DNA of 61,861 bases, the filler included, from Globobulimina sp. (Eukaryota), in the NCBI GenBank assembly GCA_003354225.1. It is 27 parts of 27 records of this genome, joined end to end, with 100 filler letters (N's around TTAATTAATTAA, not from the genome) between each part and the next. Parts side by side here need not be neighbours in the genome. Positions count along the whole stretch, not along the records: positions 6,889 to 9,084 come from PIVH01008263.1; 26 more parts are not named here. One strand, written 5' to 3'. Each line of letters opens with the position of its first letter. Within the stretch, counting starts at the first letter, position 1. A program made the position numbers and the translations under genes. The notes under the pieces are model-generated. The model did no database searches and was not told the origin of the DNA. It saw only the letters and a list, made by a program, of their open reading frames with translations. This document shows positions 2 through 9,084 of the stretch, piece by piece.

Positions 2-1113
2 GAGGTAGTCATCGATGAGCGCAAATTGATGAAAATAAATGAATTAAAATTAAATAAAGATACGATAATGGCAATTGACGTAATTTGGCCAGATGCGGAT
101 GAAGCTGTACGCAAAGAAAGAGAGCGCATCGATAATGCAACAAAATGGACAGCTGACATTTCACCGGATATTTTTTTCCAAGAATATAGAAATTGGCCTG
201 AATACGAAGCCTTTATTGCAGCATTTTTATTAAGATTCCCAGAGATCGCATCGGTGGAAGTCATGGATACGCAGACAGTGCAAGGTAGGAATATATTGGT
301 CGTCAAATTGTCGACCGGCGGCAGTGGAAAACCCGGCTTTTATATTCAAGGATGCATTCATGCGCGAGAGTGGTTGGCCTGCGCTGCGGTGACAAAAATA
401 TTAAATGATTTGGCTGAGGGCTACGATCCGGACGATGATGATAATGAAATCACCGCTATATTGCAGCAAATGGACGTTTTTATCGTTCCTGTTCTCAACG
501 TTGATGGTTATATATTTAGCTGGGAAGTGAACAGAAATTGGAGGAAGAATCGAAGAGATTTTGGCTTAACATTTGGAGTGGATTTAAATCGAAATTACGA
601 CGGACCCGCAAATACGTGGTGCAGTGCTGGAGCCAGCACCAATCCGTCGAGTGATAGTTACTGTGGGCCATCGGCGATGAGCGAACCAGAAACTGTTGCT
701 GGCATTGATTTTATTCGAAAGCCGGAGAACAACATTCAGGCAGTCTTTGACCTGCATACAAGCGGGCAATATATTATGTATCCGCAGGCATGGACTGTGG
801 CGCCATTACCCTCGCCATACAATGAGGAGTATGCTACATTGGCGCAGCAAATGTCAGACGCAGTGTATGCTGTCAATAATTATCGATATAATGCAATTCA
901 ATGTGCCCCTACATTTTCCTTCAAATCCAAACGCCAACGGAGACGTATCATTGACTGGCAAATCACCACCTTGACTCCAACAAAAATCAATCGATGAACC
1001 TGCTAAGAGGACCTGGCTTTAATCCAGATCCAAGTAATATTATTCCCGGCGGACGAGAACAACTTCGCGCTGTGATTGTTGTTGCAAAGCAAATTTTGGG
1101 AATGCCAAATTAA
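2..1113 (+). CDS. Zinc carboxypeptidase, M14A family (5'-partial); segment 920-1002 is inverted
   Basis: GCIHAREW (HxxE zinc ligands), WRKNR, GVDLNRN and DLH motifs. C-terminus LRGPGFNPDPSNIIPGGREQ...MPN* is in another frame at 1003-1113. The missing AGSSIDF...AFGFE reads on the minus strand of 920-1003. Confidence 0.92.
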
Positions 1114-1499
1114 TATAATATTAATTGTATTATATAATTTTTCTTTTTTTATTTTATTTTGTCACATAAGCATGACAAGTAACAACAGACCGCATTTATA
1201 CATGTTTATAAAGTTACACTTGGTTATATTTCATAGGAAAGCTCTATTTAACAGTTAAACCAAAAAATGGAAACAGTATTTGTAGACTTGCAAATATGTG
1301 CAGTATATTGTTTCAGTTGTACATACAACCTTGTTTTAATTAGATTTATTGGATTGGTACAAAACAACAAGCAACAAACGTGTATTATAGATCCCATGTA
1401 CACGCACAAAAAATACCAGGTGACTCACTTAAAATTTTGCAAATAAAATTATTTTGCTGCTTATATTGGTGAATTTAATTTGCTGCTATACTAAGCTTT

Positions 1500-2000
1500 A
1501 TAACAGTCAATTTGTAGCCACTTTCATTTCCACCAAATATCACTGTATATACGAATCAAGCCAACAGCAGGTTGTAATTGCCTGATATTCGCTAAGTTCT
1601 TTTTTAAACAGAATTTCATATTCATATTCATATTCGACATCATTTCTTATCAACACTGCACAAATACCATCATCTCCGTCACATGCAATAAATCCATGAT
1701 TGTTTGGTGAAAATGCAATACAATTTACATCTGTTTCTGATGTATTTATAGATTGAATCTGATAATTTCCATATTGCTATGATCTGTGTCGTTAATGGTG
1801 GCCACATAAACATTGCCATCAATACAAGATATACAAATTATCGATAAATTGTAAAGGTTGTTAATAATATAGTCAATACAAGTGACATCACCGTGACATC
1901 ACCACAATTCCAAATATAACTCTGTTTGAATTATCATTCATAAATCTAATATTTGCGGTATATCCTTGAGACAAACTTGCTTCATGCAACCGTGAGTCTG
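1500..2000 (-). pseudogene. Decayed WD40 (G-protein beta-like) gene remnant
   Basis: Fragments in shifting frames: HGDVTCIDY, ISCIDGNVYV, SETDVNCIAFSPNNHGFIACDGDDGIC, AITTCCWLDS. Confidence 0.5.
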
Positions 2001-2060
2001 TGCTGTTTCGCAAATATAGTTTATAAAACAGCTAAAAAACAGCTTTTGTATAGGATAGTA

Positions 2061-2096
2061 TAGGATTTTTGCTTTTGGTTCATTTCTTCAATCAAC
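2061..2096 (-). repeat. 36-bp dispersed element, copy 1 (copy 2 at 15924-15959)
   Basis: TAGGATTTTTGCTTTTGGTTCATTTCTTCAATCAAC versus TAGGGTTTTTGCTTTTAGTTCATTTCTTCAATGAAC, 33/36 identical. Confidence 0.75.
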
Positions 2097-2196
2097 ATTT
2101 AAATTTTCTATTTTTACTAACATTTGAGTGCTTCACTTTGTAACTAAGTATGCTGACCATGGGCAATAACTCTTTGGCAAAATCCCCCAGATGGTC

Positions 2197-2296
2197 NNNN
2201 NNNNNNNNNNNNNNNNNNNNNNNNNNNNNNNNNNNNNNNNTTAATTAATTAANNNNNNNNNNNNNNNNNNNNNNNNNNNNNNNNNNNNNNNNNNNN
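2197..2296. other. Artificial contig spacer (N44-TTAATTAATTAA-N44); first of 26 identical spacers, about every 2.3 kb
   Basis: Identical 100-bp block with stops in all six frames. Contigs: 1-2196, 2297-4492, 4593-6788, 6889-9084, 9185-11380, 11481-13676, 13777-15972, 16073-18268, 18369-20564, 20665-22859, 22960-25154, 25255-27449, 27550-29744, 29845-32039, 32140-34334, 34435-36629, 36730-38923, 39024-41217, 41318-43511, 43612-45805, 45906-48099, 48200-50393, 50494-52687, 52788-54981, 55082-57275, 57376-59568, 59669-61861. Confidence 0.99.
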
Positions 2297-3510
2297 GTCC
2301 CCTGGGTTTTCTCTTTAACAATATCATCCACAAAAAATGGCAATGACACACGTTCCTTATGATCAAACGTCAAGCATTCATTATAATGATTACTTCCAAA
2401 CAACCAATGTTTGCCACCCACACACTGGCAATATGAGTGACAAGCGCCACATTCAATTTTCGCTATCTCATATTCTACCAAATCATTTATCAATTTTGGT
2501 TCAAAAACATCCATATTATCACCATGTCCACATTGACCGTCGCTGTTCAATCCCCATGAATATATCCTCCCTTTCATATCCATGGCTAAACTATGATGAG
2601 TTCCACATTCAATCTCTCGAATCACTATCTTGCCAACCACAAAAAAATCAAGTCGTGTTACTCCAGAAACGCTTTTATTATAATTACCAACGCCTCGCTG
2701 CCCACAATCATTCCTCCCGAATGACCAAACTGTTCCAGCATCAGAAACAAACAATGAATGAGCAAAACCACAGCGAATTTTAGCAATGTTTTTGTCTCGA
2801 AATGTAACCATTTCATTCCAATGAATGCCGTCCATTCCATCAGCACAAGTATCAAATTCAAAGTTACTTTGTCCGGCACAATAAACTTTATTTATTTGCA
2901 AGAAATTAAACACCAATGTGATGACTTCAGTTGGTGTTGAAACTCCAGTTAATTTAAACCAATGTTGTATGATAATTGTTGCCATATTGCGAGGTAATCC
3001 TAACGCAATGGTATAATCTGCAGCAGGTTGAATGTCCGTAATTGGATGAGTAGTGAAAAACGGTTGCAATGTGAGCTGATTTATATGCGAATGCGAATGT
3101 GTTCTGCTTTGCGTATTAAAACCTAACTGATATTTATCATTCGATCCATTCACATATATGTGGTTATCGACTGTTATCCAAAACGTAGAACGCGATGCAA
3201 CGTTGACACAAACGGTATGTACATTTATCGTTGATGTGTTGATTGGGGAGAAAGGCACATAGGCATTGCGAAAGGCAATGTCGTTGTCGGCGCCGCAAGA
3301 ACCGTCCACGTTGTAACCTGCTGCGTAAAAATTATTATGAACGTCGCGAAAGATGCTATAATCTCGGCCAGTATATATATTTGTGATATCGGCGGGGAGT
3401 GTGGTTAACACTGATTGCATGTCACCAATGGAGATCCGTCCTAATTGGCCAAAGTAATTCTCACCAATGACATACATAATGTTGGTTGGGTATTTTGAAG
3501 ACATGATCAC
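2297..3510 (-). CDS. RCC1-repeat (beta-propeller) protein, 3'-partial, with an inserted helical module of about 35 aa
   Basis: Repeated VWSFGRNDCGQRG, IYSWGLNSDGQCG, IECGTHHSLA and IRCGFAHSLF motifs. Confidence 0.9.
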
Positions 3511-6888: not shown

Positions 6889-8936
6889 TTTTCATGGGCT
6901 TTTAATCGCATTTCAATATTAAACTTATCAGATCCTGTAAAATATAATAAATTCGCATAATAAAACTTATAATTTATAAATTTCAAATCAATCCTTCGAA
7001 AATACACTCGTTTACCTTCATCCTCATCGCATTTCATCTCCTCACTATTTTTATTTCTATTATCCGGATTGTCCAAAGTAATCATTATATCGTTATCATC
7101 CTCAAACGATGGAATATCAAATGTAAAATCATCCGGCACAGATAGCGGTAACTTATTATTATTATTATCATTCCCCACCTCCTCATACCTACATATTCCC
7201 ATATATTTAACCGGGCCATTCGCCAAATCTTCAACCAACAAACCTTTCTCTCGCAATCCGCAAACAATATCTTTCAACAATTCCTTTGAATGTTTCTTCT
7301 CTTTTACATATTTCTCACTTTTATGAGTCAATAATATGTCCACATCGCCGCAGTCTTTCTTCCCTCTCCGATACGAACCACATATATTCATAATTATTCC
7401 CGCATCGATCTCACGCAATACATCACTCACAATCTCGCCAATTTTGGTACATTGCGATCGCGGGATTCTTTTATTAATATATTGGAAATATTTTAGTCCG
7501 ATTTTTTGCTGATGATTTAATAAATCTTTTCTATTTCGTAACGCCTCAATGCTAAATATATTATGTTCTTTTACTAATTGCCTCGCTTTTTTTGGTCCAA
7601 TTCCATGGATTTGACATAATTCGTTGATGGCTTGGACACTGTCATCGGCCCGCAACTTATCCAATTTTTGTAAATGTCCCGTTGTTAATAGCTCCTCTAT
7701 TTTAGCTGCTATTTTTTTACCAACGCCGACGAGTTCTTTTTGTGCTTCTTGGCCTGACCTTATTTTCCTGCCGCTCTCTCTCAACGCTTTACACGCTTTG
7801 GAATATGCGTTGGCTTTGAATTTATTGCCAGCATTTCGTTCAATTATAGACAATTCCCACAGCGCATCAATTAATTCTTTATTTAAGCCAGAACCGGAAT
7901 ATTTATCGGAGTATTTGGAGGCGATGGGGATTCTTTTTTGTTTCTTTTTTTTTGGTGACTCGCTATCATCATTGTCACTGTTGTTTATTTCCGATAATTT
8001 GCGCTTTTTTTTCTTTGTTGGTTGGTTTAATTGCAATGGGGATGGAATATTTTCATTTTTATCACTTTCGAACATTGTTAATAATGCTGACTCAGTTCTG
8101 GGTCGTTTCGCAATTACTTTATTATTTTTATTGTTATTATTGTTATCTTCGTCTGATAAATCCATTAAACATCCATGTTCTGCTCCATTTTTGCAAATAT
8201 TTATAGACTCTCTCTTTTCTTGACAAACTTGACAACATTTATTTGTTTCTAAATTTTTAAATGTACACTTATGGCAATCCCAGCAATTATCGTTTTGTTG
8301 CTCTTTATCGCTTTTATTATCATCAATGTCCATTATGTCCATTGCATTTATGGATTGTTGGTATTTTACACATCTTATTTTTCGCGATTTATCTGATTCC
8401 GTATTGATTTGTAATAATTTGGTGAGGTCAATAATATATTTTGCGTGGGATAAATTGAGATTAATTTGTAAAGTGCCATTGTAATATGCAGATTGAATAT
8501 TATTTGATATATTGTCTGGATATTCGTGCCATTTATTCCCTCCTTTCCACTCCCAAACATATGTTGTTTCAATCTTATTATTTTCACTGTTTTTATTGTT
8601 TTTATTCTTTGGATTTATTGTTTGACAAACTTTACATTGTAATGATGTTCCTGTATTTAAAAAGGTACATTTTGAACATTCCCAATCTTCATTTTCATTT
8701 TCTTGAGCAATATTTGTTACTGTTGGTCTTTTATGGCCACAAATGGTACATATTAAATCAGATAATTTATTATCTAATGTACAATTATCACATTGCCATT
8801 CATCATTATTATCCTTATTCTCTTTATTATCAGTTGGTTTTGTAACATTTGTTTTGGTTTCTTCACAGACTTCACAAACTGATGCAGTCTCTAAATTATC
8901 AAGCCCACAATTACCGCATCTCCAAAAAGTTGACAT
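6889..8936 (-). CDS. X-family DNA polymerase (beta/lambda-like) with four RanBP2/NZF zinc fingers and a WWE domain (3'-partial)
   Basis: Four WxCxxCxxxNxxxxxxCxxC motifs. WWE: VWEWKGGNKWHEY...YIIDLTKLLQIN...RKIR. Pol X: AYSKA, GVGKKIAAKI (HhH), GIGPKKA, GSYRRG..CGDVDIL, RRIDL, LYFTGS. Confidence 0.92.
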
Positions 8937-9010
8937 TATTTTTACCGATAATTGAAGTTTTATATACCAACTGAAGTAAAACTATAGATACAAAACTACT
9001 CATCAGAGTC

Positions 9011-9084
9011 ATGTCAGGGTCAGGGAGTGAAGAAGAAACGCTGGACCTATCGGGGACTGAGACGATTCTCCTGGTCGAGGATGA
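9011..9084 (+). other. Bacterial-like fragment: start of a receiver domain of a hybrid histidine kinase (probable chimeric contig end)
   Basis: GC-richer stretch translating to EETLDLSGTETILLVED, typical of the linker into a REC domain. Confidence 0.55.

What the first reader, a model, noticed from the sequence alone, without database searches (positions are those of the whole stretch)
6889..8936. X-family DNA polymerase carrying its own ubiquitin-type and PAR-type reader domains (NZF x3 - WWE - NZF - Pol X)
Seen: one intron-free frame encodes four RanBP2-type zinc fingers (three have the T-F/L dipeptide after the second Cys: CTL, CTF, CTF), a WWE domain, a basic NLS-like linker and an intact Pol beta-like core. 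Known: NZF fingers with TF often bind ubiquitin, WWE domains bind poly(ADP-ribose), animal Pol beta reaches PAR through XRCC1, and Pol lambda/mu use BRCT. Inference: a self-recruiting repair polymerase that reads PAR and ubiquitin marks. I do not recognise this architecture.
Basis: partly seen in the sequence, partly recalled or inferred. Interest (0 to 1): 0.75.

Follow-up and report, generated by a model that had tools for sequence, protein, structure and literature searches.

The report
Foraminiferal Pol beta with reader domains
A DNA-repair polymerase of foraminifera carries its own modules of the kind that bind poly(ADP-ribose) and ubiquitin, so it may find DNA breaks without the scaffold protein that animal cells need, and related polymerases of other protists carry different ADP-ribose modules at the same place.

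Summary
Real, not a chimera. Window 6891-8936 (-) encodes 682 aa: NZF-NZF-NZF-WWE-NZF, a basic linker and a Pol beta core with the lyase Lys and three catalytic Asp. The thumb is cut off by the contig end. Three full-length NZF-WWE-Pol beta orthologues exist (one labelled Nonionella stella), plus partial ones from Reticulomyxa and Bolivina. An independently assembled contig bridges the junction. The WWE models onto TRIP12/RNF146 WWE and keeps three of the four RNF146 iso-ADP-ribose residues (the fourth is Tyr>Trp), but so do 26 of 29 other WWE domains of this genome. The genome has DNA-dependent-type PARPs, PARG and a Lig3-like ligase. No XRCC1 was found, but the search is insensitive. Best reading (0.6): a Pol beta that recruits itself to PARylated breaks, with ubiquitin and possibly PCNA adding avidity. 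All binding is inferred. Three literature searches found no description. New variant of a known kind.

The parts
6889..9084 (.). the contig (G000:C8263, 2196 nt) that holds the gene; flanking window sequence belongs to other contigs
   Evidence: N-linker layout; contig identity
6891..8936 (-). ORF, 682 aa, 3'-truncated at the contig end; orthologues run about 55 aa further to a full thumb
8856..8930 (-). RanBP2-type finger 1 (GL; no ubiquitin-binding TF motif)
   Evidence: pLDDT about 80
8727..8804 (-). RanBP2-type finger 2 (TL; third position I)
8613..8690 (-). NZF 3, next to the WWE (TF; third position V). The WWE-adjacent finger is TF in 7 of 9 finger-bearing relatives incl. this one, third position Met in 7 of 9
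   Evidence: definition in PMC11372445
8367..8564 (-). WWE domain; W130, Y167, Q176, R185 align to RNF146 Tyr107, Tyr144, Gln153, Arg163
   Evidence: model rmsd 1.1 A over 68 columns to TRIP12 WWE, 1.3 A to RNF146 WWE, Z 12.8
8211..8288 (-). NZF 4 (TF); present in P0002, P0003, P0004, absent in P0005, P0006, P0007, P0273
   Evidence: L285 kept in 7 of 8, L286 in 7 of 8, F289 in 8 of 8 orthologues against 18% identity in the linker before it; comparison with non-canonical PIP boxes in PMC7225939
7932..8015 (-). two basic clusters (aa 308-314 and 329-335), NLS-like; the first is 86% identical among orthologues
   Evidence: NLS function inferred
7656..7889 (-). 8-kDa dRP-lyase domain; K374, Y378, K408, K412, K424 align to Pol beta K35, Y39, K68, K72, K84
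   Evidence: alignment to PDB Pol beta; K35/K68/K72 named as lyase residues in PMC8607749
7467..7655 (-). fingers (HhH) subdomain
6975..7466 (-). palm with GSYRRG and D531, D533, D650 (Pol beta D190, D192, D256)
7002..7184 (-). about 55-aa acidic insertion in the palm, with a conserved F-x-F-x-I-P motif also seen in several other protist Pol betas
   Evidence: low pLDDT in the orthologue model
6891..6974 (-). start of the thumb/dNTP-binding subdomain with YFTGS, N673, R677 (Pol beta Y271-S275, N279, R283)

Best explanation
[quoted passage not shown] Steps: (1) a WGR-type PARP makes PAR at a break (enzymes present; activity inferred). (2) The WWE binds iso-ADP-ribose in that PAR and brings the polymerase (fold and residues shown; binding inferred). 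(3) TF-type NZFs bind ubiquitin at the site, for example from WWE-RING ligases, and add avidity; the PIP-like motif may add PCNA (motifs shown; binding inferred). (4) The tethered core removes dRP and fills the gap for a ligase (residues shown; activity inferred from Pol beta). In human cells XRCC1 does step 2.
For: Pol beta is the best match by sequence (E 2e-58, against 3e-42 for lambda), by fold (orthologue model Z 31.3 to human Pol beta) and by tree (beta side of a 100/99 split, with the genome's two other Pol X genes on the lambda side). WWE is present in all 9 foram-clade proteins that cover that region, 61% identical against 18-20% in the linkers, and W-Y-Q-R is invariant in them. The genome has WGR/PARP_reg/PARP genes with H-Y-E-type catalytic motifs, PARG, and WWE-RING proteins (2 of 26 WWE ORFs scanned). 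The XRCC1-binding V303 loop (PMC8607749) is replaced by a charged loop in 4 of 4 foram thumbs. Pol betas of other protists carry ADP-ribose modules of unrelated folds at the same place: PBZ+zf-PARP in Thecamonas and Cantina, a TARG1 macrodomain in Paulinella, WWE alone in a 100/100 clade of 8.
Against: Y-Q-R is WWE consensus (26 of 29 other domains). Isolated TRIP12 and DTX2 WWEs, which have these residues, were not recruited to laser damage, and flanking residues mattered for RNF146 (PMC10793466 section 3.1); the closest fold match here is TRIP12. WWE is a promiscuous module in this genome (48 matches). Most Pol beta-side proteins scanned show no reader domain (e.g. Tieghemostelium P0067, Balamuthia P0063, Ploeotia P0064), and the V303 loop has also diverged in other non-animal Pol betas, so that point is weak. 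XRCC1 absence is not established: the BRCT searches missed the BRCT of the lambda-type gene. Finger number and motifs vary.
Confidence: 0.6

Rival explanations
1. The main address is ubiquitinated PCNA. The PIP-like motif binds the clamp and the NZFs read its ubiquitin, as in ZRANB3 (PIP + NZF) or Y-family polymerases (PIP + ubiquitin binder). The enzyme then works in post-replicative gap filling, lesion bypass or long-patch repair, and WWE is secondary.
For: Conserved L-L-x-[MIVAL]-F island; Gln sits at PIP position 1 in P0117 and Reticulomyxa P0006. It resembles the non-canonical PCNA binders listed in PMC7225939. Canonical PIP boxes occur in the N-terminal extensions of 3 of 45 non-foram beta-side proteins against 0.13 expected from shuffles. 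PCNA genes are present.
Against: The motif lacks Gln1 in most orthologues and has only one aromatic residue; it could be any amphipathic docking helix. The WWE is better conserved than the fingers or the motif (61% against 32-57% and 41%), and WWE-only relatives lack fingers.
Confidence: 0.2
2. The modules regulate rather than recruit. WWE binds free ADP-ribose, ATP/ADP or the protein's own ADP-ribosylation, and the NZFs link it to ubiquitin-dependent turnover or to release of PARP from the gap.
For: WWE domains of TRIP12, HUWE1 and DTX1, the nearest folds, are solved with ATP, ADP or ADP-ribose. Several human WWEs did not recruit to damage. A Paulinella Pol beta carries an eraser-type macrodomain rather than a pure reader.
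Against: The long disordered tether with terminal readers fits recruitment better than allostery, and PBZ+zf-PARP fusions in other lineages point to break targeting.
Confidence: 0.11
3. The fusion is a by-product of domain shuffling in a genome rich in WWE and NZF modules, tolerated but unimportant for repair.
For: 48 WWE and 61 PARP matches. The NZF3-WWE start is copied at 82% nucleotide identity over 177 nt into an unrelated gene on C839. Finger number varies.
Against: WWE is kept at 61% identity, close to the palm's 63%, from Reticulomyxa to Nonionella and Bolivina labels, while the linkers drift to about 20%.
Confidence: 0.07
4. Assembly chimera joining an NZF-WWE gene to a Pol beta gene.
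For: Short-contig assembly; an AAT repeat at 8114-8154 breaks the contigs of run X1; part of NZF3 is duplicated elsewhere.
Against: One contig of run X2 spans 7554-8914 with 2 differences and no gap (X2 may be the source sample). Three full-length and several partial orthologues from other sources have the same order.
Confidence: 0.02

Closest known systems
Human/animal DNA polymerase beta (PDB 4rpx, 1bpx) with XRCC1
   Same: 8-kDa lyase, fingers, palm and thumb; lyase and catalytic residues; 42% identity and Z 31.3 for the orthologue model.
   Different: 350-aa N-terminal extension with NZF, WWE, PIP-like and NLS-like motifs; about 55-aa palm insertion; V303 loop not kept. Human Pol beta needs XRCC1 for recruitment (PMC8607749, passages).
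DNA polymerases lambda/mu/TdT (BRCT-Pol X)
   Same: A Pol X core with an N-terminal targeting domain on a flexible linker.
   Different: No BRCT; the core falls on the beta side. The genome has two separate lambda-type genes, one with a weak BRCT match.
RNF146/TRIP12/HUWE1/Deltex WWE domains
   Same: Fold (rmsd 1.1-1.5 A) and Tyr144/Gln153/Arg163 equivalents.
   Different: Trp at the Tyr107 position, as in the Deltex and TRIP12 alignments; here fused to a polymerase, not to an E3 ligase or PARP.
PBZ-bearing repair proteins (APLF; Dictyostelium damage-response proteins; ligase K)
   Same: Repair proteins that carry their own PAR reader (PMC4245714 and PMC6264785, passages).
ZRANB3 (PIP + NZF + APIM)
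   Same: An NZF together with a PCNA-binding-type motif in a DNA-repair enzyme (PMC11372445, PMC7225939).
   Different: ZRANB3 is a translocase/nuclease without WWE; the PIP here is non-canonical and untested.
RNF114/138/166 readers of ADP-ribose-ubiquitin hybrids
   Same: ADP-ribose and ubiquitin recognition side by side in damage-response proteins (PMC13061329, abstract).
   Different: Different domains (their tandem zinc-finger/UIM module is recalled); no evidence here that NZF3 and WWE pack or bind together (pTM 0.34).

Membership tests
DNA polymerase beta (X family, beta branch) | Pol X core with three catalytic Asp and G-S-F/Y-R-R-G | tested here: met
   D531, D533, D650
DNA polymerase beta (X family, beta branch) | 8-kDa lyase domain with K35/K68/K72 equivalents | tested here: met
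   K374, K408, K412
DNA polymerase beta (X family, beta branch) | groups with beta, not lambda, in a tree; no BRCT | tested here: met
   54-row IQ-TREE, 100/99 split; the 160-row FastTree left the foram clade unplaced between the two; no BRCT in Pfam
DNA polymerase beta (X family, beta branch) | complete thumb | tested here: inconclusive
   cut by the contig end here; complete in P0002, P0004, P0273
DNA polymerase beta (X family, beta branch) | XRCC1-binding V303 loop of animal Pol beta | tested here: not met
   tested on orthologues only: charged loop in 4 of 4
DNA polymerase beta (X family, beta branch) | gap-filling and dRP-lyase activity | not testable with these tools
   needs purified protein
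PAR-binding WWE domains (RNF146 type) | WWE fold | tested here: met
   pLDDT 91-95 over aa 131-190; Foldseek E 5e-6, VIA Z 12.8
PAR-binding WWE domains (RNF146 type) | Tyr107/Tyr144/Gln153/Arg163 equivalents | tested here: met
   W-Y-Q-R (Trp for Tyr107, as in the DTX1/TRIP12 alignments). Necessary, not sufficient
PAR-binding WWE domains (RNF146 type) | binds PAR / iso-ADP-ribose | not testable with these tools
   needs a binding assay
NZF ubiquitin-binding fingers | W, four Cys, N, plus T-F/Y and a hydrophobic residue in the second CxxC | tested here: met
   met by fingers 3 and 4; finger 2 has TL; finger 1 (GL) does not meet it
NZF ubiquitin-binding fingers | binds the ubiquitin I44 patch rather than Ran or RNA | tested here: inconclusive
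   fold search returns Ran-binding (Nup153/Nup358) and ubiquitin-binding (TRABID, HOIL-1L, TAB2) fingers alike
PIP box | Q-x-x-hydrophobic-x-x-aromatic-aromatic | tested here: not met
   canonical form not met (no Gln1, Met at 7); fits only the looser non-canonical class
PIP box | binds the PCNA pocket | tested here: inconclusive
   not established with these tools; see Tried and rejected
XRCC1-independent repair system | organism lacks XRCC1 with its Pol beta-binding N-terminal domain | tested here: inconclusive
   0 XRCC1_N matches (1 candidate scored); no XRCC1-like BRCT among 10, 5 and 9 overlapping matches; fragmented assembly, and a known BRCT was missed

The most novel reading that the evidence does not exclude
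Outside animals, Pol beta has repeatedly solved damage targeting without XRCC1 by fusing an ADP-ribose module directly (WWE, PBZ+zf-PARP, TARG1 macrodomain). The foraminiferal form goes further: its WWE and the adjacent, best-conserved TF finger act as one coincidence reader of PAR and ubiquitin, possibly of ubiquitinated ADP-ribose, with a PIP-like motif as a third handle. A repair enzyme, not an E3 ligase, would then read the hybrid mark.
Probability: 0.15. Interest if true: 0.85.

Novelty: new variant of a known kind. Interest (0 to 1): 0.58.

Why it matters
Pol beta recruitment is known almost only from mammals, where it depends on XRCC1. A natural Pol beta with its own PAR and ubiquitin readers lets one ask directly whether PAR-tethering is all XRCC1 must supply, by expressing it in XRCC1-null or POLB-null cells. 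Unrelated ADP-ribose modules on protist Pol betas suggest that coupling to PARP is a general need of this enzyme, met in several ways. Tempering this: every part is a known domain, reader-enzyme fusions are known for PBZ, and WWE is shuffled widely in this genome.

Tried and rejected
Complex prediction of the PIP-like peptide (aa 270-305) with the genome's PCNA gave 'no answer' (score 0.03, mark 0.34; alignments not used; PCNA given in two pieces; peptides are outside the tool's calibration): no evidence either way. The metagenome scan with the foram alignment matched 252 stretches, none confirmed. No RNA holder was listed among 10 runs; run X6 laid nothing; no contig spanned the whole stretch. 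A single origin of all WWE fusions was not rejected and not shown (AU p 0.125, 8 rows against 15); deep nodes are weak, so I do not call the WWE fusions convergent. The shuffle test of the foram linker motif is circular, because the pattern came from those sequences; only the positional conservation and the independent test are used. C6773 (PBZ + BRCT + TPR frames) was read as an XRCC1 candidate and rejected by eye. The first ESM Atlas search gave only generic Pol X clusters at 0.82 or less. The scan's own notes had nothing by words or sequence. Bienstock et al. 2014 (PMC4260717), the main Pol X phylogeny, is not held, so I could not check it. Chimera: rejected. 'Intron-free because a transcript': rejected, since other contigs carry several genes and apparent introns.

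Full report
What the window is. The window is 27 contigs of 2193-2196 nt joined by N-linkers. The finding fills one of them, G000:C8263, window 6889-9084, so the window neighbours say nothing about it. G000 is 70 Mb in 48,370 contigs with no completeness figure. Other contigs carry several genes and apparent introns, so it is a fragmented genome assembly. The nearest named relatives are from Reticulomyxa filosa, Nonionella stella and Bolivina argentea; I infer a foraminifer.

The observation. The minus-strand frame runs 682 codons from ATG 8936 to the contig end without a stop. Pfam gives RanBP-type fingers, WWE (126-188, E 1.2e-13), HHH_8, fingers, palm and the first residues of the thumb. 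The four fingers read GL, TL, TF, TF. PMC11372445 (passages) defines NZFs by Thr-Phe/Tyr plus a hydrophobic residue in the second CxxC, so fingers 3 and 4 qualify, finger 2 is borderline and finger 1 does not. Against PDB sequences the core matches Pol beta best (E 2e-58; lambda 3e-42), with K374/K408/K412 at K35/K68/K72, D531/D533/D650 at D190/D192/D256, and YFTGS. 'Intact' holds up to the cut; about 55 thumb residues are missing.

Not a chimera. Of 59 hits in the first protein search, 6 share the N-terminal region: P0002 (718 aa, 53% over 93% of the query) and P0004 (771 aa) are full-length NZF-WWE-NZF-Pol beta; P0003, P0005, P0006 (Reticulomyxa RFI_09736, partial) and P0007 are partial. A cluster look-up added P0273, 757 aa, NZF x3-WWE-Pol beta, labelled Nonionella stella in EukProt, and two Bolivina fragments. 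One of these, P0093, sits in the same 90% cluster as P0273, so the two are not independent. In run X2 one contig spans 7554-8914 with 2 differences and no gap. Run X1, from another study, covers 6889-8113 and 8155-8944 and breaks at an AAT repeat. An X8 contig covers 6889-7502 with 24 differences and runs 178 letters past the window contig's end. X6 laid nothing. X2 may be the source sample.

The readers. AlphaFold2 on the window's residues 1-243 gives a confident WWE and four fingers joined by low-confidence linkers (pTM 0.34). The WWE matches TRIP12, HUWE1 and RNF146 WWE at rmsd 1.1-1.5 A (Z 12.8). W130, Y167, Q176 and R185 align to RNF146 Tyr107, Tyr144, Gln153 and Arg163, the four residues named as essential for iso-ADP-ribose in PMC10793466 (passage). 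Y-Q-R is present in 19 of 19 WWE domains from Pol beta fusions or their fragments. The control weakens this: 26 of 29 other WWE domains of the genome that cover the three positions also have it (39 domains aligned). Section 3.1 of the same paper reports no recruitment of isolated TRIP12 or DTX2 WWEs to laser damage. Among 10 foram-clade proteins, WWE identity to the query is 61%, the palm 63%, the fingers 32-57% and the linkers 18-20%. The finger next to the WWE is the most canonical: TF in 7 of 9, Met at the third position in 7 of 9. The finger after the WWE is absent in 4 orthologues. Fold search cannot tell ubiquitin-binding from Ran-binding fingers.

Residues 282-289 form an island in the linker: L285 7 of 8, L286 7 of 8, F289 8 of 8, with Gln at PIP position 1 in P0117 and P0006. 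It is not a canonical PIP box but resembles the non-canonical PCNA binders tabulated in PMC7225939 (passages). Independently, 3 of 45 non-foram beta-side proteins with an N-terminal extension have a canonical PIP box, against 0.13 expected from shuffles. PCNA binding is untested experimentally.

The cell around it. The genome has at least 61 PARP and 48 WWE matches, including WGR-PARP_reg-PARP genes with H-Y-E-type motifs (motif reading recalled), 7 PARG matches, and Lig1-, Lig4- and Lig3-like ligases (assignment by recalled sequence features; the Lig3-like frame shows no zf-PARP). Of 26 WWE frames scanned, 6 also matched PARP, 2 RING and 1 SAM; none matched another repair enzyme. Two further Pol X genes fall on the lambda side. 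XRCC1_N gave no match, and three BRCT searches (10 of 16, 5 of 10, 9 of 11 candidates) showed nothing XRCC1-like by eye or by a recalled motif (0 of 124 loci). Those searches missed the weak BRCT of the lambda-type gene (E 0.0015), so absence is inconclusive. The V303 loop that human Pol beta needs for XRCC1-dependent recruitment (PMC8607749, passages) is a charged loop in 4 of 4 foram thumbs, but it has also diverged in other non-animal Pol betas.

The wider pattern. The profile-free search listed the best 150 of 7220 hits. I Pfam-scanned 30 chosen for long N-termini or several matched stretches and 30 more from this and later searches (2 repeats). Found: P0062 (one GF finger + WWE; labelled Nonionella but outside the foram clade, perhaps a co-sampled organism); a clade of 8 WWE-only Pol betas (100/100), unnamed, whose nearest Atlas cluster is mostly Haptophyta (0.92, tied with others; a lead only); zf-PARP + PBZ in Thecamonas trahens (P0081) and Cantina marsupialis (P0092); and a TARG1/OARD1 macrodomain in Paulinella chromatophora (P0090; E 4e-32). 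The last three are single sequences and were not checked for chimerism. Most scanned beta-side proteins show no reader. WWE, PBZ and macrodomain are unrelated folds, so they were gained separately. Whether the WWE fusions share one origin is open (AU p 0.125).

How it most likely works. Shown: architecture, conservation, folds, catalytic and pocket residues, and the presence of PAR writers and erasers. Inferred: PARP marks a break; WWE binds the PAR; TF fingers bind ubiquitin at the site; the PIP-like motif may bind PCNA; the core removes dRP and fills the gap. I put this at 0.6, the ubiquitin-PCNA route at 0.2, a regulatory role at 0.11, a tolerated shuffling product at 0.07 and a chimera at 0.02.

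Against what is known. It is a member of the Pol beta branch and works, by inference, like Pol beta plus the PAR-binding function of XRCC1. Repair proteins with their own PAR reader are known for PBZ (PMC4245714 and PMC6264785, passages); PIP + NZF is known from ZRANB3; ADP-ribose-ubiquitin hybrid marks and their RNF114-type readers at damage sites are known (PMC13061329, abstract; others as search listing). Three full-text searches found no paper on this fusion: WWE / polymerase beta / X family / foraminifera, 3 of 4 terms, 0 papers; X-family / phylogen / protist / domain architecture / PBZ, 4 of 5 terms, 1 paper on rotifers without it in the passages read; WWE domain / DNA polymerase X / fused / eukaryotes / novel architecture, 4 of 5 terms, 0 papers. 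The library lacks most subscription journals and Bienstock et al. 2014, and no supplements were read. Earlier AI notes on this genome list other WWE fusions (unchecked), in line with my own counts; this lowers the surprise of any single WWE fusion here.

Verdict. A real, conserved, apparently undescribed variant of Pol beta, with a plausible and easily tested mechanism and a cross-protist pattern that makes it more than a one-off. Interest 0.58.

Noticed in passing
P0081 (Thecamonas trahens), P0092 (Cantina marsupialis): Pol beta with N-terminal zf-PARP and PBZ, in opposite order in the two; they do not group in the tree.
   Followed up: partly
P0090 (Paulinella chromatophora), aa 3-112: Pol beta fused to a TARG1/OARD1-like macrodomain, an ADP-ribose eraser type, with a PIP-like motif near aa 306. 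Single sequence.
   Followed up: partly
P0091, P0096, P0121, P0123, P0144, P0255, P0256, P0258, P0265: A clade of GC-rich, probably haptophyte Pol betas that start with a WWE lacking the usual first Trp-Glu-Trp but keeping Y-Q-R.
   Followed up: partly
window 7002-7184; P0062, P0064, P0070, P0092 and the WWE-only clade: A long palm-loop insertion with a shared F/L-x-I/L-P-S/D motif followed by acidic or helical residues in many protist Pol betas; function unexplained.
   Followed up: partly
L101 (G000:C839) 1400-1564 against window about 8540-8716: The NZF3 and first WWE residues are copied at 82% nucleotide identity over 177 nt into an unrelated gene; contigs with this copy have several-fold higher depth in runs X1 and X2.
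   Followed up: partly
L009 (G000:C32282) 476-598 (-): A non-polymerase frame shares the palm-insertion stretch (61% identity to aa 585-629) with no DNA match in blastn.
   Followed up: no
G000 whole: Large PARP (61 or more matches), WWE (48 or more) and PARG (7) repertoires; WWE-PARP, WWE-RING and WWE-SAM proteins.
   Followed up: partly
L075/L111 (G000:C6773) 409-2364 (-): Neighbouring frames with a PBZ finger, a BRCT and a TPR region, possibly one spliced gene.
   Followed up: no
L112, L113, L114: At least two distinct PCNA types; one has a long acidic insertion in the C-terminal domain.
   Followed up: no
P0101, P0159, P0102, P0181, P0183, P0008-P0024: Pol X fused to an mRNA capping enzyme, an ATP-dependent ligase, an AP endonuclease 2, an OGFr domain or an NAD-dependent ligase; probably largely viral (inference).
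   Followed up: no
L105 (G000:C29512) 98-895 (+): Lig3-like ligase frame that begins at the DNA-binding domain with no zf-PARP match; C-terminus cut off.
   Followed up: partly
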